Assembly: GCA_016839805.1 (NCBI GenBank)
Contig: JAEOTO010000032.1
Span: 96,001 to 160,000 of the forward strand
Direction: 5' to 3'
DNA from: Candidatus Hermodarchaeota archaeon
GTDB lineage: Archaea > Asgardarchaeota > Hermodarchaeia > Hermodarchaeales > Hermodarchaeaceae
Length of the DNA stretch: 64,000 nucleotides
Shown here: in pieces, positions 220 to 9,350 of the stretch
Layout of the letters: each line of letters opens with the position of its first letter
How positions within the stretch are numbered: the first letter of the stretch is position 1
Program-made: the position numbers and the translations under genes
Notes under the pieces: model-generated
Told to the model about the DNA's origin: nothing
What the model saw: only the letters and a program-made list of their open reading frames with translations
Database searches by the model: none

Positions 220-366
220 TGGTGGGCACGGCGGGATTCAAACCCGCGACCTCCGGCTTACCTAGGCTTCGCAGTTGAATGTTCGGAGCGACACCATATA
301 AGGCTTACACACTTTGCGTATTAATACGCGAGAGTTCGGCGCTCCATCAGGCTAAGCCACGTGCCC
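220..366 (-). tRNA. tRNA-Ile(UAU) with two introns (29/30, 32 nt at 305-336; 37/38, 38 nt at 259-296), CCA encoded
   Basis: Spliced 77-nt cloverleaf: GGGCACG TG GCTT AGCCTGATG GAGC G CCGGC CT-TAT-AA GCCGG AGGTC GCGGG TTTGAAT CCCGC CGTGCCC ACCA. Both introns have bulge-helix-bulge-like junctions (GCGC/GTGT and CTTA/TAGG central helices). Discriminator A and GGGC start fit Ile. Confidence 0.88.
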
Positions 367-416
367 ATTATGAATTGTGTGATGTTTCACAGCAGCTTAA
401 ATGTGTTGGGTCACTC

Positions 417-3389
417 TTAGTCCTCTTGGACGATAAACCCAAATTGAATCTCTTCTTCAGCAAAAGTAAGTTTCCCAGTTGCAAGTCCCTTTAAGATGGG
501 CAATTTGTCGCCTATTTCAAGTGTCAAGGCACCAACCTTTGAAGTGATACCTTCTCGAGTAGTTTCTATTGCCTGGTGGAGTTCTGATGACTCGATCGCC
601 AGATACAGGGCGATGCGTTGAGTAACGTGTAATCCCTGTTTTTTTCGGGTCGCTTGTATTCGGCGAATAAGATCACGTGAAAGCCGCTCAGCGCGAAGTT
701 CAGGGGTTTCACTGATATCAAGGTATACCGTTGCAAAGGGTAACTCTTTACTTCTGAGTAACTCTCCCTTAGCCTTTTTTTGGATCTCTACAAATTTGAC
801 GTTGGTTTGGCTTGCTACAACATCGCTAAAATGATCGATTTGGAATTCCTTTTTTGAAGGAACAATGATTAAGCGTTGACAAGGCCAACGTAGTTTCAAA
901 CCTTCCTCTTGGCGAATAAATTGAGTTGTTTCTACGATAGCAGAGACCCACTCCATTTCTTGGCTCAGCTCTGGATCAATCAGTTTTTCGTTGACTTCAG
1001 GCCAAGGAAGCATGTGAACACTTATTGGAGCATCAGGTTCCGCAGAGCGAATGAGTGCTTGATACATTCTTTCTGTTTGAAACGGAAGGACTGGGGCTAG
1101 AACCGCTAAGAGTGTTCTTAGAACGTAGTAAAGTGTAGTAAATGCTTGGATTTTGGTTTCATCATGAGAGCTAACCCATGTTCGTGGTCGAATCAGTTTG
1201 ATATACCATCGACTCAAATCTTGGACGATGAAAGACTCCATTAAGCGTGGTATAAATGGAAGTTCGTATTTCTCCAGTCGTTCAGCCACTTGTTTTATTA
1301 ATAGATGCAACTGGGAGAGAATCCACCGATCCTCATTTTGTAAGGATTGCGGTTTCAACCGATGAGATGTTGGCTCAAATTTTGCGGCTTTCATGAATGT
1401 GGTTGCAAAGACATAAACATTCCAAAGAATTGAGAGAGAACGACGGGTATCTTCGACATCTTTCCAAAGAAAATGCAAGTCTTCGCCTGGACCAGTGCTC
1501 TTTATACAATACATTCGTAGTGTCTCAGCACCAAATTTCTCCACTACTTCTTCAGGAAACACGCCAATGCCTTTTGACTTTGACATTGGTCGACCGTGCT
1601 CATCAGCTGTAAAGCCATGCATATAGACACTTTTGTAAGGTTCTCGGTTATCAGCCAGCATGGTGGAGTTGAAGAGGGTATTAAACCAGTTGCTAATTTG
1701 GTCCTTGCCTTCCATTACAAAGTCAGCTGTTTCCCAATTATCAAAATCCGTAGTTCCGTAGGTTGCCCAGCGAGTAGCCCAGGGAGCAACACCACTATCT
1801 AACCATACATCTAAGACATCAGGAACCCGTTTCATTGTGTTTTTGCATTTCGAACAAGGCCAAGTGATTTTGTCGATCCATGGTCGATGGAGGTTCTCAG
1901 GAACCTTTCCGGATTTCTCTTTTAGTTCATCAATGCTCCCAATAACTTCAATTTCCTCACATTTGTCACATTTCCAGATTGGTAGAGGAGCTCCCCAATA
2001 GCGTTGTCTGGAAATGCACCAGTCCCGAAGATTTTGCACCCAGTTACGGAACCAAGTATGTCCAGCCCAGTCAGGAATCCAGTAGACATCTTCGTTCTTT
2101 TTGATGATTTCTTCGCGTAAATCGCTAACGCGGAGGAACCACTGATCGGTAGCAAGGTATACTAGAGGGCTACCGCATCGCCAGCAGTGAGCGTATTCGT
2201 GTTCAATTGTGTCCTGATGAACTAAGAGGTTCTTTCGGCGTAAATCTTCGAGAATAACTTCACTTGCATCTTGGACCTTCATACCTGCATATTTTCCACC
2301 TTCTTCCGAGAAGGTACCAGCAAACGTGACTGGACAGAAAATGGGAATTCCCTCACGCTCACCTACCTCGAAGTCCTGAGGGCCATGCCCAGGGGCCATG
2401 TGAACAAGTCCAGTTCCTTGCTCTAGTGTTACATATTCATCACTCAGCACAACAGAATGAACTTTCTCAGAGGTTTCTCTGTATTTAGCCTGTCTAGGAA
2501 CCTCGTCTAGCAGGGGATGTTCATAACGAAGCCCCAGAAGCTCCTTTCCTTTGAATTCTTCAATCACTTCGTATTGCTTGTTTAGCAGAGCCTGTAGTAT
2601 TATGTTGGCTAGTCCTTTGGCTAGAATCCATACTTCATCATTAACTTTGACGCGAACGTATTCAAATTCGGGATTTACCATTACTGCCATGTTTGCTGGA
2701 AGTGTCCATGGAGTCGTGGTCCAAATCACAATGAACTCTTTATTTCTCCCAAGGACCGGAAACTTTACCCAAATCGAATAATCTTCAATTGTCTTAAATT
2801 CATGCTCTCGTTTTGCAAGGGCTGTCTCACAACGAACACAACAATCTATAGATCGTAGCCCACGGTAAAGAAATCCTCGTTCAGAGGCGCGTTTCATTAA
2901 ATACCAAGTGCCTTCAATATAGGGATTATCAATCGTGCGATACGGTCTGTCCCAATCCATCCAAATGCCTAAACGTTTGAACTGCTTCGTCATTTGATCT
3001 AAATTCGATAAGGCAAAATTCTGACACTGTTCAATGAATTTATCCACGCCAATCTCTTTTTCAATGTCAAGTTTCGATTTGATGCCTAGAGCCTTTTCTA
3101 CGTGCACCTCAATAGGTAGCCCGTGCATATCAAAACCAGGTGTGTCTACAACACTGAATCCCTGCATCCTCCGAAACCGTAAGACCATGCCCTTCAAAAT
3201 TTTGTTCCAAGCGGTTCCCAAGTGTATGGCACCTGTGGTGTAAGGTGGACCATCTAAAAACTTGAATGAGGGTCGATTTCGAAGTTGCTTTGTCACCAAC
3301 TCATACACTTGATTCTTTTGCCAGAACAGAAGAATCTCTTCTTCCATTGAGGGTAACTCGAATTGCTTCGGAAGTTCTGAAACTGGCAT
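417..3389 (-). CDS. ileS: Isoleucine--tRNA ligase (archaeal/eukaryotic type)
   Basis: DGPPY..G.IHLGT (HIGH-like), WTTTPWTLPAN, GTGLVHMAPGHG, DWCISRQRYWG, PMSKSKG. ATG at 3389 preferred over the upstream TTG. Confidence 0.96.
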   Translation of the reverse strand: MPVSELPKQFELPSMEEEILLFWQKNQVYELVTKQLRNRPSFKFLDGPPYTTGAIHLGTAWNKILKGMVLRFRRMQGFSVVDTPGFDMHGLPIEVHVEKALGIKSKLDIEKEIGVDKFIEQCQNFALSNLDQMTKQFKRLGIWMDWDRPYRTIDNPYIEGTWYLMKRASERGFLYRGLRSIDCCVRCETALAKREHEFKTIEDYSIWVKFPVLGRNKEFIVIWTTTPWTLPANMAVMVNPEFEYVRVKVNDEVWILAKGLANIILQALLNKQYEVIEEFKGKELLGLRYEHPLLDEVPRQAKYRETSEKVHSVVLSDEYVTLEQGTGLVHMAPGHGPQDFEVGEREGIPIFCPVTFAGTFSEEGGKYAGMKVQDASEVILEDLRRKNLLVHQDTIEHEYAHCWRCGSPLVYLATDQWFLRVSDLREEIIKKNEDVYWIPDWAGHTWFRNWVQNLRDWCISRQRYWGAPLPIWKCDKCEEIEVIGSIDELKEKSGKVPENLHRPWIDKITWPCSKCKNTMKRVPDVLDVWLDSGVAPWATRWATYGTTDFDNWETADFVMEGKDQISNWFNTLFNSTMLADNREPYKSVYMHGFTADEHGRPMSKSKGIGVFPEEVVEKFGAETLRMYCIKSTGPGEDLHFLWKDVEDTRRSLSILWNVYVFATTFMKAAKFEPTSHRLKPQSLQNEDRWILSQLHLLIKQVAERLEKYELPFIPRLMESFIVQDLSRWYIKLIRPRTWVSSHDETKIQAFTTLYYVLRTLLAVLAPVLPFQTERMYQALIRSAEPDAPISVHMLPWPEVNEKLIDPELSQEMEWVSAIVETTQFIRQEEGLKLRWPCQRLIIVPSKKEFQIDHFSDVVASQTNVKFVEIQKKAKGELLRSKELPFATVYLDISETPELRAERLSRDLIRRIQATRKKQGLHVTQRIALYLAIESSELHQAIETTREGITSKVGALTLEIGDKLPILKGLATGKLTFAEEEIQFGFIVQED

Positions 3390-3576: not shown

Positions 3577-4092
3577 ATGAGTACACCGCAACGCCAGTAT
3601 GTCCTCAAAGTCTGCGTCGTCGGCGATGGCGCCGTTGGTAAAACCAGTCTTATCATCCGATACACCGAAGGTCACTTCCGGGAGTCGTATATCATGACCG
3701 TGGGAACTAGTTTTGCCGTGAAAGAACTAAATTTTGGTGATACTTTAGTGCGTTTACAGTTGTGGGATCTGGCTGGTCAACCTCACTTTAGTTCTGTGCG
3801 GCCTGTCTTCTATCGGGGAGCAGCTGGTGTGATTTTAGTATTTGATGTTACGCGGCGTCAGACCTTTGAAAATATCCCCGGGTGGTATGATGAAGTTTCA
3901 CAGGTTACCGGGGCGGTTACCTCAGTCTTGTTGGCTAACAAAGTTGATTTGATAGATCAGCGCCAAGTGTCGACGGAGGAGGCTATGGCTTATGCACAAC
4001 AATTGGGGTGGGGTTATTTTGAGACTAGCGCTAAAGAAGGGCATGGCGTTACTGATGCTTTTCGCCAGATTGCCTGGACTGGTGTTAGCTAG
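3577..4092 (+). CDS. Rab-like small GTPase (Ras superfamily)
   Basis: GDGAVGKTS, WDLAGQ, NKVD, ETSAK. RabF-like motifs VGTSF, LQLW, FYRGA, LVFDVT. Confidence 0.93.
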   Translation: MSTPQRQYVLKVCVVGDGAVGKTSLIIRYTEGHFRESYIMTVGTSFAVKELNFGDTLVRLQLWDLAGQPHFSSVRPVFYRGAAGVILVFDVTRRQTFENIPGWYDEVSQVTGAVTSVLLANKVDLIDQRQVSTEEAMAYAQQLGWGYFETSAKEGHGVTDAFRQIAWTGVS

Positions 4093-4103
4093 CTTAATTT
4101 TCA

Positions 4104-4883
4104 TTAAGCGTCGTTTAGATACTCTGTGAGTTTACGCGAGTTCTTCTGCATAAGAAAGGTTGCACACTGTTGAGGTTTAATTTTCCGATATTCAAGACCG
4201 AGTTGTTCAATTAGAGCGAAGGTTCCTTTGGTGAGACTTGGTGCGACAAGAATGCCCCGCAATTGAGTGGCATCTTCGGTTTGGAAACTTTTAATATAGC
4301 GATAGAGTTGATGGACTGCTTCGCTGTCAGCACGACGGCGTTTAACTTCGATAATGACTAATCGTCCTTTGTCATCACGGGCAAAGATATCGATGAATCC
4401 TGGGGCAACAGGGCGTTCACGTCGTATTGTGCGGAGTCCAGCTTCAATGAGTTCAGGGTGAGCACTAAGAACCTTTTGCATCTCATCTTCGGTTAAATGC
4501 ATACTAAACTCACCAGCGTCATCAATAAGGCTCGCACTAACCATGGAAAGCAGGGAAAATTCAATGCGAACAGTTTCACGCGGTTTTGCACGATTAGCAA
4601 ATAGAATGAGTTTATCCTTCTCTTGCTTAATCTTTAGAGTAGCTCCTGGAGGTTGCCAGTTAACGGGTTCAACTCCACTCTCCTTATGAACTAGGATAGC
4701 TCCATCACGTTTTAAAATTATTAGACGTTCACCCTCCGTTAGTACTGATCTAGCGCGACCATGATACTCGACATAGCAGTTGCCAATAATTTGGATTAAT
4801 CGCTTTTGTGAAATTGCCTTTTCAAGGAGCTGATGAGCTTGCCTTAGGGTTGGTGATTGGAGTAGCCATATTTTCTCATTCAT
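4104..4883 (-). CDS. nucS: Mismatch-specific endonuclease NucS/EndoMS
   Basis: Y.GRA.S.L..GERLIILKRDG, EPVNWQPPG, IDIFARD..G.LVIIEVKR, QLYRY. Start trimmed to MNEKIW because the longer ORF overlaps the divergent gene. Confidence 0.92.
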   Translation of the reverse strand: MNEKIWLLQSPTLRQAHQLLEKAISQKRLIQIIGNCYVEYHGRARSVLTEGERLIILKRDGAILVHKESGVEPVNWQPPGATLKIKQEKDKLILFANRAKPRETVRIEFSLLSMVSASLIDDAGEFSMHLTEDEMQKVLSAHPELIEAGLRTIRRERPVAPGFIDIFARDDKGRLVIIEVKRRRADSEAVHQLYRYIKSFQTEDATQLRGILVAPSLTKGTFALIEQLGLEYRKIKPQQCATFLMQKNSRKLTEYLNDA

Positions 4884-4966
4884 TGAGGAGTTAAGATCAG
4901 ACAAAGTATAATCAAATCGAAGACATGCCGTAATTCTAAATAAGTTTTGACTACCAGTAAAGAATT

Positions 4967-5503
4967 GTGTGTAAATTTCGTTTGTATGATGAATCAGCAC
5001 AATCCTATCATCGTCGGTATAGCCAAATTCAACGAATAAAATACCAAGCAATAGTCACATATCTTGAAAGATGTCCTCTTGTAGATGTCGGTATTGGAAC
5101 AGGTATTGGTTTGGCATCGATTATTGAATTCGCTCCAATTGTTGGTGTTGATTGGGCAATCGAAATGTTGCGAATAGCACATAAACAAGTGATAAAAATC
5201 AATGAGTGGAACCAAGCCATATCCTTAGTGTGTGCATCAGCGGAGGCATTACCCTTCCGGAACAACGTTTTTCCAACTGTAGTTAGCATTACGGTAATTC
5301 AAAATTTGAATAATATTCAGCGTGGAATTCAAGAACTAATCCGAATTGTACAGCCCCGAGGAATATTAGCCATAACGACATTAGAAAAGTGTCTGCCCAT
5401 TCAAGAGCTTGAAACAGAGTTTAATCAACTTTCTACTCCAATTGTACGTTTAGAAAATCTTGGAAATGAAGACGGAGGATTAATCTATAAATTACCCAGC
5501 TGA
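4967..5503 (+). CDS. Class I SAM-dependent methyltransferase
   Basis: VDVGIGTG, GVD....ML, A.AEALPFR motifs. Confidence 0.85.
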   Translation: MCKFRLYDESAQSYHRRYSQIQRIKYQAIVTYLERCPLVDVGIGTGIGLASIIEFAPIVGVDWAIEMLRIAHKQVIKINEWNQAISLVCASAEALPFRNNVFPTVVSITVIQNLNNIQRGIQELIRIVQPRGILAITTLEKCLPIQELETEFNQLSTPIVRLENLGNEDGGLIYKLPS

Positions 5504-5586: not shown

Positions 5587-5847
5587 TTGAATACCGTGGA
5601 AAATCAGCCAATTAAAATTCTACAAAAAGCTACCAATAACTTGGTTTTGATCAAACTCAAAGATGGCAAAGAGTACCGAGGTCGATTAAAAGAAATTGAC
5701 ATGTACATGAACCTTGTTTTGGAAGGCGCTGAGGAATTGATGGATGGAAAACCAACAGCGAAATTTGGTGAAGTCCTTATCCGAGGTAATAATATTCTTT
5801 ACATCAAACCGGATTTGACACAGATTATTTGGGAGAATAAGGAATAG
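5587..5847 (+). CDS. Sm-like (LSm/SmAP) RNA-binding protein
   Basis: Sm1 G.L..ID.YMNLVL and Sm2 VLIRGNNILYI. Confidence 0.93.
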   Translation: MNTVENQPIKILQKATNNLVLIKLKDGKEYRGRLKEIDMYMNLVLEGAEELMDGKPTAKFGEVLIRGNNILYIKPDLTQIIWENKE

Positions 5848-5876: not shown

Positions 5877-7952
5877 TCATCCATTGTTTTCAGAACTTTC
5901 ATTTCGTCGCTCTTGACGGTATTCTTCAATTAAACGTTCAAGCGCATAAGCTGCAGCTTCACGTTCAGAAGATTCATATCTATCCTGCCATTTTGTGATT
6001 TCCTTATCTAGTTGCTCGACATCAACAACGGCAAATTCGTCAACAACAGTGATTTGTAATAATTCTGCATCTATTACGGGTATATGTGCGGCTTTAAACT
6101 GTTTAAGTGCTAGATGAGACATCGTTCCGTGCGTTATTACCAGCTGAACCCCGAATTGAATTAATTGCTCAGCTGTTGAGCGTCCACCTCCGCTTGGATC
6201 CTGGATGTATACGACTTTTCTCCTCTTTCGTGGATATCGATCGCTGAGTCGGCGAAGTTCTTCTTGAGAAAAGTGTGGGAGAACCACAACGGGTTGTACC
6301 TCACCCCGAATTTCTAGTCGCCGCATTAATTTCAAATTTGTTAAGGTGCGTTTCGTACTCTCAAGCGTTTGGTTTTGTTCATGAAGTCTTTTTTCTAATC
6401 TTTGGATTTCAACATCTTTTCGCTGGATTTGTTCATCACGGCGTTGCTCTCGTTGTTCCACATTTAATGCACGATTAAGTTGCTGTTTAATATGCTTCAA
6501 TTCTTGTTTGGTTTTCTTTTGTTCTTCAAGACTTAGATGATGTTGACTCTTTACAAATTCTAGTTGTCTTTGGAGAGATTCCACCTGACGCTGCAAACGG
6601 TCAATCATTCGTTCATATTGTTCAGATGTATAGCCTTCCCCTACAGATTGACTGAGTATCACAGGTTCAATTTTTGCGTCTTTAGGTTCCTTGCTAATTA
6701 TGGATTGCTCGATTGCATCACTAATAGACACACCTTGAAAAACCATCGATACAGCTTTAGAAATCAAATGGAGTTCTTCACTTTTCCGTAAATTCTGGTT
6801 AAGTGACTTCAATTTTTTCCCGTAGGCCTGAAAGACCTTTGTGATCGCCGCGACTGCATCTCGTTGATGGGCATTCCTTGGACTTAGTTCAGAATTTGCG
6901 GTGAATGATTTCGCTAATTCCCTTTTCTCCACTACAGACATCAATCTGTCCGGAACAAATAGGTGAGCTTGTAACGATCTACTAAGCTTTTCGATGAAAC
7001 TTGGAGCAGGAGATACATCAGATGCGATTAGAACCGGTTTCCCAAATTCAACCAGATATCTGATAACATCTCCTCGTGATAAACCTCGCCCGCTATGAAT
7101 TGCCATAAGATGACCCGAAATATCAGAAATTGCTATTCCAACTGTTGTGCCAGCATCAATGCCAACGACTAATAGCCGTCGCGGACCAAGATGCTCTCCA
7201 TTTTCTTCTCTGGGCGAATATAATAGAGAACGACGTTTTACAGGGGATATCCGAACAGCCACACCAGCAATTCGATTCACTTCGGATTGAACTAGTTTAC
7301 TAACGCTATCAACCGCTTTGTATACATGTATTGCACATCTGGACAAACCGTGTGAAGTTCTGGTTTCGTATTCATCGTAATCTATACCCGCTTTAGTTAG
7401 TTTCTCTAAGATTTTTCGAGCAACCTGTTGAATAGCTCCATGCATTCGTCTCTGATAACGAGCTTGAGAATAACCACCAGGTCCAATATTCCTAGCTCTA
7501 GTTATTGTGATTCGGGTTTCATGTGCTAAGGCAGAAACTTCTATTCCAACACCTAAGGCAGCTAATTTCGCTAATACTGTTGCTGTCTCAATCGGTGAAG
7601 GGTGTTTGATTATTTCTATTCCGTGTCTTGTTGCTAGTTTTTTTAGTGATGTCATACCATGGATTGGTGAACCAGTAACTTGGATAACCCGAACTTTTGA
7701 AGAAATCTTTGATAGAAACTCAATCACGCCTTTTTCTGTGGGAGCCAATTCAAGTAGGTTATCAGTTGCAATGATGTCAGGTTCGAGCTTGCGAATAACC
7801 TTTAATAATTCATTTCGTCGGATGGAGCTTTGGGTTTCAAGCACTTCGTCTTGAAAAAGCACCATTGCATAACGAGGGGTTTTTTTAGCGGATGGGGAGC
7901 TTTGAGGAAGAATATCAAAGCTAATTATTTGGGGACCAGAAGTTTTAGTCAT
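5877..7952 (-). CDS. DUF460-family protein (RNase H-like fold plus coiled coil)
   Basis: IATDNLLEL, GPGGYSQARYQR, VVGIDAGTTVGIA, HQRDA, then a long coiled coil. Confidence 0.85.
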   Translation of the reverse strand: MTKTSGPQIISFDILPQSSPSAKKTPRYAMVLFQDEVLETQSSIRRNELLKVIRKLEPDIIATDNLLELAPTEKGVIEFLSKISSKVRVIQVTGSPIHGMTSLKKLATRHGIEIIKHPSPIETATVLAKLAALGVGIEVSALAHETRITITRARNIGPGGYSQARYQRRMHGAIQQVARKILEKLTKAGIDYDEYETRTSHGLSRCAIHVYKAVDSVSKLVQSEVNRIAGVAVRISPVKRRSLLYSPREENGEHLGPRRLLVVGIDAGTTVGIAISDISGHLMAIHSGRGLSRGDVIRYLVEFGKPVLIASDVSPAPSFIEKLSRSLQAHLFVPDRLMSVVEKRELAKSFTANSELSPRNAHQRDAVAAITKVFQAYGKKLKSLNQNLRKSEELHLISKAVSMVFQGVSISDAIEQSIISKEPKDAKIEPVILSQSVGEGYTSEQYERMIDRLQRQVESLQRQLEFVKSQHHLSLEEQKKTKQELKHIKQQLNRALNVEQREQRRDEQIQRKDVEIQRLEKRLHEQNQTLESTKRTLTNLKLMRRLEIRGEVQPVVVLPHFSQEELRRLSDRYPRKRRKVVYIQDPSGGGRSTAEQLIQFGVQLVITHGTMSHLALKQFKAAHIPVIDAELLQITVVDEFAVVDVEQLDKEITKWQDRYESSEREAAAYALERLIEEYRQERRNESSENNG

Positions 7953-8853
7953 TCTTCTTTTTTCCTTGTTTTGGGGCGGTCACTCTTTTTAGAGTTTCAT
8001 CAACGTCATACATTATACTAAACCTGCGTTTGAAAAATGTAAGAATATGGGAGAGATCTCGTTTTAGTAGCCACATAGAATTTGGATGACTTAGGGGTTG
8101 CCATTGAGGCCAATCAAAGATGGTAACTTGTTCATTTTCATCGACGAAGATATTGTATTCACTGAGGTCACCATGAACTAGTTTTGCTTTCTGGTAGGCA
8201 AGTTGCACTTGTTGAAGAATTTGCTCAAGCACATTATGAGGGTGTTCCAATTCTGATATTTGAAGCAGTAGATCACCCGTCATTTGCGACATTACGATGA
8301 CGTGGCGATTAAGCGCTATTGGTTGCGGCACTTTCCCACCAATATCATACAATATTCGTAAAACCCCGAATTCTCTTTTCGCTGCTCGTTTACTGAAGGC
8401 TATCCAAGAATGGATGGGTTCATCTTTGAGCTTGCGGAGTCTTCGAATGCGTTTAAAACTCGTTTGTCCCCATCGAAGAAACTTTACAGCAACCTCCTTT
8501 CCATTTGCGTCCAAAGAACTGTACACGGTTGCTTCCTTACCGACACCATAAGGTTGCCCAAGAGATACAATTACATCTTTTTGGGCCAAGTCATGCAAGG
8601 CTAATGCATCATAACCTGCACGCGATATCCGATATCCAAGGTAATGTTCTTTTTTCCGTTGTACTAATCTAATTTTATTTAATTTCCCAAGAAGAAATAG
8701 AATATCATCTTCATCCAGCGATAATTTTGTCGCGACCTCTTCAAGAGGGATGTACTCAAATCGATGTACTAATTCTTCGAGAGCTTGAAGTACTTGAATT
8801 TCTTCAGATGAGATTTCTTGCAGAATCTTGGCGAGACGGTACAACTCAATCAC
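7945..8853 (-). CDS. rio2: RIO2-type atypical protein kinase (N-terminal winged helix)
   Basis: GYDALAL, GVGKEATVY, VKFLR.GQTSF, VHGDLSEYNI, IFDWPQ. Probable GTG start at 8853. Confidence 0.9.
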   Translation of the reverse strand: MIELYRLAKILQEISSEEIQVLQALEELVHRFEYIPLEEVATKLSLDEDDILFLLGKLNKIRLVQRKKEHYLGYRISRAGYDALALHDLAQKDVIVSLGQPYGVGKEATVYSSLDANGKEVAVKFLRWGQTSFKRIRRLRKLKDEPIHSWIAFSKRAAKREFGVLRILYDIGGKVPQPIALNRHVIVMSQMTGDLLLQISELEHPHNVLEQILQQVQLAYQKAKLVHGDLSEYNIFVDENEQVTIFDWPQWQPLSHPNSMWLLKRDLSHILTFFKRRFSIMYDVDETLKRVTAPKQGKKKND

Positions 8854-9041
8854 GTGAATTGCGGTGTTACGCCGACAAAAAGCTATTGGGAGTAAGTTAT
8901 CAATTGAGTCAGTCTCTTTTTGAATAAAAGCTTGGATTATTGGTGAAAGCATTCCTTTACCATTCAGCTGGGAAACGTATATTAAGGAGAGCCACCGAAA
9001 TTGGCTACCGAGTCTATTTACTAAGGCGGGAGTTTTATACA

Positions 9042-9350
9042 TTGAAGGAACGATTTGAAGTACCCGATGAAAAGGTTCTAAAAGTGGCTAAAGCGCTTTC
9101 CAGCGATACGCGACTTGCGATTATTGCTCTACTCATTAACAAGAGCATGGATGTTAGTCGAATTGCAGAAGCTCTAAAACAAACTGAAGCGAATATCAGT
9201 GCTCAAGTTAAGCTTCTAGAGCAGGCTGGACTCATTAAGAGTCATTATGAGCCCGGCGAGCATGGTGTAAGAAAAGTTTGTGAACCTGCTGTTAAGAATG
9301 TCATTTTTGATACGACATCTCTTAAACTGGAGACTCATACTCGGAAATAA
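9042..9350 (+). CDS. ArsR-family HTH regulator
   Basis: KALSSDTRLAIIALL...IAEAL......ISAQVKLLEQAGLI. Start position uncertain. Confidence 0.82.
   Translation: MKERFEVPDEKVLKVAKALSSDTRLAIIALLINKSMDVSRIAEALKQTEANISAQVKLLEQAGLIKSHYEPGEHGVRKVCEPAVKNVIFDTTSLKLETHTRK

What the first reader, a model, noticed from the sequence alone, without database searches (positions are those of the whole stretch)
220..3389. Hidden two-intron tRNA-Ile(UAU) directly behind ileS: candidate eukaryote-like AUA-decoding system in an archaeon
Seen: the anticodon exon is only 8 nt (GC CT TAT A, 297-304) between two BHB-type introns, so it is easy to miss or mis-call. Splicing gives a full 77-nt cloverleaf with anticodon UAU, 50 nt downstream of and co-oriented with IleRS. 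Established: most archaea read AUA with tRNA-Ile(CAU) carrying agmatidine made by TiaS, because U34 risks misreading AUG. Eukaryotes use tRNA-Ile(UAU), and in yeast its pseudouridines at 34/36 require the 37/38 intron. Inference: this lineage may use an intron-dependent UAU modification route with a co-adapted IleRS, possibly replacing TiaS. That would be a prokaryotic precursor or parallel of the eukaryotic solution.
Basis: partly seen in the sequence, partly recalled or inferred. Interest (0 to 1): 0.85.

Follow-up and report, generated by a model that had tools for sequence, protein, structure and literature searches.

The report
Self-guiding intron in archaeal tRNA-Ile(UAU)
This is a real two-intron isoleucine tRNA gene that reads the AUA codon in an Asgard archaeon lacking the usual archaeal enzyme (TiaS), a swap already known from a few archaea; the new part is that its anticodon intron carries a conserved, guide-RNA-like element that probably makes the tRNA direct its own wobble-base modification.

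Summary
Observation confirmed: two BHB introns hide a 77-nt tRNA-Ile(UAU) 50 nt behind ileS in a Hermodarchaeia genome. The gene is conserved in 16 of 18 relatives. TiaS is not found in any of the 19 genomes, and no tRNA-Ile(CAU) was found in this one. Replacing TiaS with UAU is known (Nanoarchaeum, Korarchaeum, ARMAN), and this scan found it before in at least 16 Asgard genomes. New here: the anticodon intron carries, in fixed register, 4 nt antisense to tRNA 29-32, a 7-8-bp helix strand and an ACA triplet 14 nt from the U34 level, the geometry of the 3' half of an H/ACA guide. ACA is in register in 64 of 65 distinct Asgard introns, shifts with the antisense tract in Loki-type genomes, recurs with covariation in DPANN, and is missing from 56 control introns. 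The yeast-type enzyme family (TruA/Pus1) is missing from all 19 Hermodarchaeia; Cbf5, Nop10, Gar1 and L7Ae are present. Best reading (about 0.6): the pre-tRNA guides Cbf5 to make pseudouridine 34 (perhaps 36), blocking Elp3-type U34 modification that misreads AUG. No modification was measured. A Heimdallarchaeota-labelled family keeps TiaS, so this is a parallel, not a shown precursor, of the eukaryotic route.

The parts
337..366 (-). tRNA-Ile(UAU) exon 1 (positions 1-29; C4, U12-A23; unusual A19 and G21)
   Evidence: identical in 13 congeners
305..336 (-). Intron 1, position 29/30, relaxed HBh' motif; variable, absent in one relative (G018)
297..304 (-). Exon 2, GCCTTATA (positions 30-37); anticodon UAU at 300-298
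259..296 (-). Intron 2, canonical 37/38, strict hBHBh'; carries the guide-like element
292..295 (-). Intron nt 2-5, antisense to tRNA 32-29 (3 of 4 pairs here); role of an H/ACA 3' pocket strand (inferred)
284..290 (-). Intron nt 7-13 (CGCTCCG), pairs with tRNA 20-26; lower-stem (P1-like) strand
   Evidence: covaries with the D-arm across three Asgard classes; MFE of nascent RNA
280..282 (-). ACA triplet, intron nt 15-17, 14 nt from the U34 level
   Evidence: in register in 64/65 distinct Asgard introns; 0/22 long control introns
340..346 (-). tRNA 20-26 (TGGAGCG), partner of intron nt 7-13 in the alternative fold
220..258 (-). Exon 3 (positions 38-76; T-loop with U56 pairing A19; A73; CCA)
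396..401 (-). TATA-like box (TTTAAG/TTTAAA) about 30 nt upstream of the tRNA; suggests its own promoter (inference)
   Evidence: seen in all congener loci printed; position
417..3389 (-). ileS, archaeal/eukaryal-type IleRS, 990 aa, lacking the C-ter B/INS subdomain
   Evidence: TIGR00392 910 bits; alignment and trees
645..656 (-). IleRS Q912-x-x-R915, inferred equivalent of yeast Gln996/Arg999 (wobble-base reader); conserved irrespective of TiaS status
   Evidence: PMC11685878; equivalence inferred from motif and position

Best explanation
The gene makes the only AUA-reading tRNA of this TiaS-less lineage (shown by genome content; expression not shown). While the pre-tRNA is being made, the first 17 nt of the 37/38 intron fold back on the tRNA: nt 2-5 pair with 29-32, nt 7-13 pair with 20-26, and ACA follows. 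This builds the lower half of an H/ACA guide-plus-target complex in one molecule, with U33-U34-A35-U36-A37 in a short loop (fold: supported by covariation and computation). Cbf5 with Nop10/Gar1 binds the ACA and stem through its PUA domain and turns U34, 14 guide nt from the ACA, into pseudouridine; U36 may follow, as in the unpaired UVUN case of Haloferax sR-h45 (enzyme and product: inferred). The RNA then refolds into the BHB and a two-subunit EndA plus RtcB splice it (inferred from gene content). Pseudouridine 34 keeps Elp3 off U34 and favours AUA over AUG; a standard archaeal-type IleRS charges it through the conserved arginine (inferred from yeast and Haloarcula data).
For: TiaS is all-or-none by Asgard family: 0/137 genomes in 11 families, 122/130 in the rest. 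This genome has only initiator and elongator Met CAU tRNAs, and AUA is 12.2 per 1000 codons. The element was first seen in three families, then found in genes retrieved with motif-free searches: families f15 and f29, Loki-type f9, Thermoprotei AUK163, and the Micrarchaeota and Woesearchaeota-containing phyla. ACA lies 13 nt from the G that pairs C32 in 64/65 distinct Asgard introns; in f9 both move together (+2 in 42, +1 in one, 0 in one). In 60 non-Asgard UAU introns versus 56 control 37/38 introns: antisense of 3/4 or better 58 vs 13; 4/4 39 vs 1; ACA at 15 in introns of 23 nt or more 22/50 vs 0/22 (shuffles mean 0.7, max 4); swapping introns among genes lowers pairing (0 of 5000 swaps reach the observed value). 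The nascent RNA folds this way as its MFE, even with intron 1 present. The 14-nt distance is the archaeal H/ACA rule (PMC2651775); UVUN plus ACA gives two pseudouridines (PMC7075261); Cbf5 modifies T-arm-like hairpins without a guide (PMC6138745, PMC11077068). Cbf5, Nop10, L7Ae, a weak Gar1 hit, Elp3 and two EndA paralogues are present; TruA/Pus1 is not. U34 mutants in haloarchaea become cnm5U and bind AUG (PMC3895270); in yeast pseudouridine 34 blocks ncm5U (PMC6582322).
Against: No modification, expression or binding was measured. The element lacks the K-turn, upper stem and 5' pocket of true archaeal H/ACA guides. In DPANN the ACA is often degenerate, and NCA (33/50) is commoner than ANA (about 25/50), which fits a CCA-end mimic as well as an ACA box. 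Some short introns lack ACA altogether. U33 is mostly unpaired, and guides tend to modify the most 5' unpaired U (PMC7075261). In the full-length precursor the fold is only about 20% of the computed ensemble. The genomes are related, so the P values overstate. Yeast reporters showed little AUG misreading without the intron (PMC6582322). Pus10 and TruD are also present.
Confidence: 0.6

Rival explanations
1. Same fold and same product, different enzyme. The hairpin mimics the acceptor/T minihelix (U33-U34 like U54-U55, 17 nt to a CCA-like NCA), and Pus10, or TruD/aPus7 acting on UA steps, makes pseudouridine 34/36.
For: Pus10 and TruD are present. There are 17 nt between U34 and ACA, as between U55 and N73 in tRNA. 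NCA outnumbers ANA in DPANN. Pus10 makes archaeal pseudouridine 55 in vivo (PMC11077068); aPus7 prefers UA steps (PMC2651775).
Against: The triplet is internal, not a free 3' end. Cbf5 is known to use internal ANA boxes; THUMP domains bind terminal CCA (own knowledge). Strict ACA in 64/65 Asgard introns at the H/ACA distance. Nanoarchaeum equitans lacks Pus10 but has Cbf5 and Nop10 (PMC2584109).
Confidence: 0.15
2. U34 stays unmodified, as in Mycoplasma mobile. The alternative fold only times splicing or shields the loop, and AUA/AUG discrimination comes from the tRNA body (here A19-U56, G21) and the ribosome.
For: M. mobile precedent (PMC3575796, PMC6582322). Odd elbow in Hermodarchaeia. Some DPANN UAU introns have no ACA. 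About 18 of 45 tRNAs in this genome have 37/38 introns anyway (read).
Against: It does not explain an ACA held at fixed distance while the helix partner changes (20-26, 39-46, or inside the intron). Elp3 is present and could act after splicing. U56 is confined to Hermodarchaeia and one Odin gene among the UAU genes scored.
Confidence: 0.15
3. The intron is a trans-acting guide (excised intron or a second pre-tRNA molecule), like the C/D guide in the Haloferax tRNA-Trp intron, or it binds another PUA-domain enzyme and directs a different modification.
For: The Trp intron guide works in trans (cited in PMC4090602). In f9 the helix lies wholly inside the intron (7-8 of 8 pairs in 41/42).
Against: Only 4 bp of antisense and no 5' pocket. 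In most lineages the helix partner is the tRNA's own exon, which favours cis folding.
Confidence: 0.07
4. One reading: a Pus1-like, intron-dependent route with a specially adapted IleRS that is the ancestor of the eukaryotic system.
For: Same anticodon and intron position as yeast; UAU is widespread in Asgard; the IleRS forms a UAU-associated clade.
Against: No TruA/Pus1 in 19 genomes. Wobble-reader residues unchanged. INS subdomain lost here but kept in eukaryotes (PMC13752280). A Heimdallarchaeota-labelled family keeps TiaS.
Confidence: 0.03

Closest known systems
tRNA-Ile(UAU) of Nanoarchaeum equitans, Ca. Korarchaeum cryptofilum and ARMAN (PMC3575796, PMC3239211, PMC6000648)
   Same: UAU anticodon with no TiaS and no tRNA-Ile(CAU); intron present (37/38 in ARMAN-2, one intron in Korarchaeum).
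   Different: Here two introns, ileS linkage and an Asgard host. No paper found describes a functional element in these introns or the state of U34.
Stand-alone H/ACA sRNAs Sso1/sR115 that guide pseudouridine 35 in pre-tRNA-Tyr (PMC2651775, PMC11077068)
   Same: Cbf5 machinery aimed at an anticodon U of an intron-containing pre-tRNA; 14 nt from target to ACA; 3' guide pairing with the target's 5' arm.
   Different: Those are separate RNAs with K-turn, upper stem and two-sided pocket. This element is inside the substrate's own intron and has only the 3' half.
Box C/D guide nested in the Haloferax tRNA-Trp intron (PMC4090602, PMC6582322)
   Same: A tRNA intron that encodes the guide for its own anticodon-arm modification.
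   Different: C/D class, 2'-O-methylation, acts in trans. No C/D boxes with usable spacing were seen here.
Guide-independent Cbf5 activity on tRNA U55, 23S U2603/2607 and atypical H/ACA RNAs (PMC6138745, PMC11077068)
   Same: Cbf5 acting on a hairpin whose second loop base is the target.
   Different: The loop here is 6-8 nt, has A rather than C after the target, and is tied to an internal ACA.
Yeast pre-tRNA-Ile(UAU) with Pus1 (PMC6582322)
   Same: Intron-dependent pseudouridine 34/36 that excludes Elongator modification (the outcome inferred here).
   Different: Pus1 is a stand-alone TruA-family enzyme, and that family is absent from this lineage.

Membership tests
Archaeal tRNA-Ile(UAU) replacing TiaS | Spliced cloverleaf with UAU and Ile-type body | tested here: met
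   ARAGORN tRNA-Ile(tat) on the joined exons; A73, C4-G69, U12-A23; 55/77 identical to own tRNA-Ile(GAU)
Archaeal tRNA-Ile(UAU) replacing TiaS | No tiaS | tested here: met
   PF08489 0/19 in the family (72-91% complete); controls positive; tblastn with three Asgard TiaS finds nothing in the genome
Archaeal tRNA-Ile(UAU) replacing TiaS | No tRNA-Ile(CAU) | tested here: met
   45 tRNAs found, CAU only initiator and elongator Met; genome 86.7% complete, one Leu isoacceptor also not found
Archaeal tRNA-Ile(UAU) replacing TiaS | Expressed, spliced, charged with Ile, reads AUA and not AUG | not testable with these tools
Archaeal box H/ACA guide RNA | ACA/ANA box 3' of a lower stem | tested here: met
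Archaeal box H/ACA guide RNA | About 14 nt from target U to ACA | tested here: met
   14 intron nt for U34; co-shift in f9; rule
Archaeal box H/ACA guide RNA | 3' pocket strand pairs with the target's 5' arm | tested here: met
   3-4 bp with 29-32, covarying
Archaeal box H/ACA guide RNA | 5' pocket strand and upper stem with K-turn/K-loop | tested here: not met
   none in the fold; no Rfam guide hit. It works like an H/ACA half, but is not a member
Archaeal box H/ACA guide RNA | Cbf5, Nop10, Gar1, L7Ae encoded | tested here: met
   (Gar1 26.8 bits, just under the 29.3 cut-off; cbf5 has an intron and an intein)
Archaeal box H/ACA guide RNA | Pseudouridine formed at the predicted site | not testable with these tools
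   needs biochemistry
Eukaryotic Pus1-dependent tRNA-Ile(UAU) route | TruA/Pus1-family enzyme | tested here: not met
   PF01416 0/19; present in four other Asgard genomes
Eukaryotic Pus1-dependent tRNA-Ile(UAU) route | Intron at 37/38 that pairs with the anticodon | tested here: met
   BHB central helix 32-35; shifted to 38/39 in most f9 genes
Archaeal BHB introns cut by (alpha-beta)2 EndA | Strict and relaxed BHB motifs plus two EndA subunits | tested here: met
   motifs from the sequence; catalytic EndA and a paralogue; subunit roles inferred

The most novel reading that the evidence does not exclude
Archaeal tRNA-Ile(UAU) genes across Asgard, DPANN and at least one Thermoproteota carry an ancient self-guiding intron: a minimal, K-turn-less H/ACA half that makes the pre-tRNA its own guide for Cbf5 and yields pseudouridine 34 (and 36). 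This would be the missing mechanism by which TiaS-less archaea read AUA without AUG, inherited together with a distinct IleRS subtype and convergent with the eukaryotic Pus1 route.
Probability: 0.55. Interest if true: 0.85.

Novelty: new variant of a known kind. Interest (0 to 1): 0.72.

Why it matters
How archaea with a UAU anticodon avoid putting Ile at Met codons has been left open in the papers read here (PMC3575796, PMC3895270). The element gives a concrete, cheap test with existing recombinant Cbf5 systems. If right, it adds a cis-acting pseudouridylation guide to the known functions of tRNA introns, shows a minimal H/ACA architecture close to the tRNA minihelix, explains why every archaeal UAU gene recovered here keeps an anticodon-loop intron, and shows archaea and eukaryotes reaching the same modified anticodon by different enzymes. 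It also corrects annotation: about half of the Asgard genomes sampled lack TiaS, and a standard finder missed the gene here.

Tried and rejected
ARAGORN with relaxed scores: noise. Reading the intron as a C/D guide: no boxes with usable spacing, and the candidate D' box is not kept outside Hermodarchaeia. First version of the motif (fixed CGC, D-arm partner): failed in Loki-type genomes; its three hits there and the hits in those families were not tRNAs. The general form appeared only after the f9 gene was found by Rfam. UAU genes of families f23-f27 were not recovered, so the element is untested there. Anticodon switch at a shared locus: no tRNA lies behind ileS in 13 TiaS-positive Asgard genomes or in two f9 genomes, so the origin from a CAU or GAU gene is not resolved. 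Special wobble-reader residues in IleRS: none. INS loss as a UAU adaptation: a TiaS-positive Hadarchaeota IleRS also lacks it and the loss is common in prokaryotes (PMC13752280). Forced order of splicing: the guide-like fold forms with or without intron 1. Literature searches for Asgard with TiaS, and for a self-guiding Ile intron, found nothing; the library lacks most subscription papers, and the Suzuki and Numata 2014 review was not held.
Full report
1. Observation. The minus strand at 366->220 holds a tRNA gene in three exons (30, 8 and 39 nt) with introns of 32 nt (29/30) and 38 nt (37/38). The joined exons give a 77-nt cloverleaf that ARAGORN calls tRNA-Ile(tat); the raw gene is missed and singly spliced forms are miscalled. 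The 37/38 intron forms a strict BHB in which U34 pairs with an intron A. ileS (910 bits) ends 50 nt upstream on the same strand. The gene with TAT is in 16 of 18 family members, with exons nearly invariant, intron 1 variable and intron 2 conserved. A conserved TATA-like box about 30 nt upstream suggests its own promoter (inference).

2. Host and decoding set. The nearest named IleRS proteins are from Hermodarchaeia (95% to isolate H03M_Hermod_104, 87% to Ca. Hermodarchaeum yapensis). TiaS is not found in this genome or in 18 relatives. Of 45 tRNA genes found, the CAU ones are initiator and elongator Met, and Ile has GAU and UAU. AUA is 12.2 per 1000 codons, 16% of Ile codons, so this tRNA is almost certainly needed. 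Across 268 Asgard genomes TiaS is all-or-none by family: 0 of 137 in eleven families, 122 of 130 in the others. A TiaS-less family contains Odinarchaeum yellowstonii, and a 15/15 TiaS-positive family contains a genome labelled Heimdallarchaeota. That Heimdallarchaeia are closest to eukaryotes, and the names Atabeyarchaeia for f12 and Loki-type for f9, rest on my own knowledge. The swap itself is published for N. equitans, Korarchaeum and ARMAN, and this scan noted it in at least 16 other genomes.

3. The element in the anticodon intron. Comparing the genes behind ileS in three Asgard classes showed intron nt 7-13 complementary to tRNA 20-26, with each lineage's D-loop variant matched, followed by ACA at nt 15-17. 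I then tested this on genes found without using the motif. Families f15 and f29 have it, including an A23G change matched by U to C. In Loki-type f9 the intron is mostly at 38/39 and otherwise very variable, yet the antisense tract to 29-32 and the ACA are near-invariant and shifted together by 2 nt; one gene shifts both by 1 and one by 0. There the helix partner lies inside the intron (7-8 of 8 pairs in 41 of 42). Overall, ACA lies 13 nt from the G that pairs C32 in 64 of 65 distinct Asgard introns. Outside Asgard, motif-free patterns found UAU genes in 16 of 201 genomes of the Micrarchaeota phylum, 44 of 251 of the phylum holding a Woesearchaeota genome, and 1 of 301 Thermoproteota; these patterns miss genes with extra introns. 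Against 56 control 37/38 introns of other anticodons (14 CAU, 2 GAU), the 60 non-Asgard UAU introns show antisense of at least 3/4 in 58 versus 13, ACA at 15 in 22 of 50 long introns versus 0 of 22, and a near-perfect helix with 20-26 or with 39-46 in 32 versus 2. Changes at 29 and 30 are matched in three of five variant genes, and intron swaps never reach the observed pairing in 5000 trials. Kinship inflates these P values, but the three different helix partners and the co-shift are hard to get from ancestry alone. In this gene the alternative hairpin is the MFE of the nascent RNA with or without intron 1, and about 20% of the full-length ensemble.

4. Mechanism. Shown: the pairing potential, its conservation, the gene content. 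Inferred: the enzyme and the product. The layout (pairing with the target's 5' arm, lower stem, ACA 14 nt from the target) is the 3' half of an archaeal H/ACA guide-target complex and places U34 as target. The unpaired UAUA matches the UVUN setting in which one hairpin makes two pseudouridines if ACA is present. Cbf5 also acts without a guide on T-arm-like hairpins. The genome encodes Cbf5, Nop10, L7Ae, a weak Gar1 match, Pus10, TruD, Elp3 and two EndA paralogues; an RtcB was seen by motif only. TruA/Pus1 is missing from all 19 family genomes. The need is clear: U34 placed in a haloarchaeal tRNA-Ile becomes cnm5U and binds AUG, and in yeast pseudouridine 34 prevents Elongator modification. I give this model 0.6; the same fold used by Pus10 or TruD 0.15; an unmodified U34 0.15; trans action or another enzyme class 0.07; the eukaryote-precursor reading 0.03. 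Weak points: no K-turn or 5' pocket, degenerate ACA in many DPANN genes with NCA commoner than ANA, an unpaired U33, and no direct data.

5. IleRS. The Q-x-x-R motif that I equate with yeast Gln996/Arg999 is present in TiaS-positive and TiaS-negative enzymes alike, and that arginine is reported to read all Ile wobble bases, so no special reader is needed. But the IleRS proteins of TiaS-less Asgard families group with a Woesearchaeota and the AUK163 enzyme (100/99), apart from TiaS-positive Asgard enzymes, and the clade holds when the C-terminus is removed (100/98). All lack the INS subdomain. TiaS was not found in those two genomes (incomplete MAGs), and AUK163 has its UAU gene beside ileS, on the opposite strand. 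The tRNA follows ileS in f1, f12 and f2 but not in two f9 genomes. This points to shared history of ileS and the UAU gene. Transfer versus loss was not tested; the trees are midpoint-drawn and hold no eukaryotes.

6. Comparison and novelty. It is a member of the known archaeal tRNA-Ile(UAU) class. It works like an H/ACA guide but fails membership (no K-turn, no upper stem). Intron-nested C/D guides and stand-alone H/ACA guides for pre-tRNA-Tyr are the nearest precedents. Two unchecked notes describe K-turn self-guides in Asgard tRNA-Tyr introns, which I read only after the element was found and tested. Verdict: real; the decoding swap is known; the self-guiding intron is a new variant with a direct test. 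Interest 0.72.

Noticed in passing
window 347-348 and 240 (minus strand): The near-universal G19-C56 elbow pair is A19-U56, with G21, in all 12 distinct Hermodarchaeia genes; other lineages' UAU genes mostly keep C56. Trm56 is present but would have no C56 here.
   Followed up: partly
G000 C9:52720-50000 (L428, minus): cbf5 carries a 42-nt BHB-type insert with an in-frame TGA just before the KPPGPTSH motif, and an intein of about 520 aa with a LAGLIDADG domain. cbf5 is also split near its N-terminus in G029 and G225.
   Followed up: partly
G000 C22:23371-23240 (minus): tRNA-Tyr has a 55-nt 37/38 intron with K-turn-like CUGA/AUGA motifs, like the self-guide notes e1-5455381 and e1-5474230.
   Followed up: no
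G000 C27:4041-4185 and C22:27464-27283: tRNA-Trp and elongator tRNA-Met introns contain box C/D-like motifs; the Met gene has three introns.
   Followed up: no
L211, L220-L249, L311-L330: Most Loki-type f9 tRNA-Ile(UAU) genes have the anticodon intron at 38/39 rather than 37/38; two keep 37/38.
   Followed up: yes
L134 / L270 (Thermoprotei archaeon AUK163): Only 1 of 301 Thermoproteota matched the UAU pattern. It has a full ACA element, no TiaS found, and an IleRS of the Asgard-UAU clade, which suggests a transferred ileS-tRNA cassette.
   Followed up: partly
all 19 genomes of family f1: No TruA (PF01416) in any Hermodarchaeia genome searched, so pseudouridine 38/39 must be absent or made otherwise.
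   Followed up: no
window 3577-4092 (+), 4104-5051 (-), 5587-5847 (+), 7945-9042 (-): Neighbours upstream of ileS: small GTPase, NucS endonuclease, Sm-like protein, RIO-type kinase.
   Followed up: no
L015 (G001:C15:34187-37150): ileS match in G001 has one in-frame TAG; probably an assembly error.
   Followed up: no
G000 C22:29030-29140, C14:4060-4179, C22:155123-155229: Many tRNA genes carry introns at unusual places (D-stem, D-loop, T-loop 59/60), which standard finders miss or miscall.
   Followed up: partly
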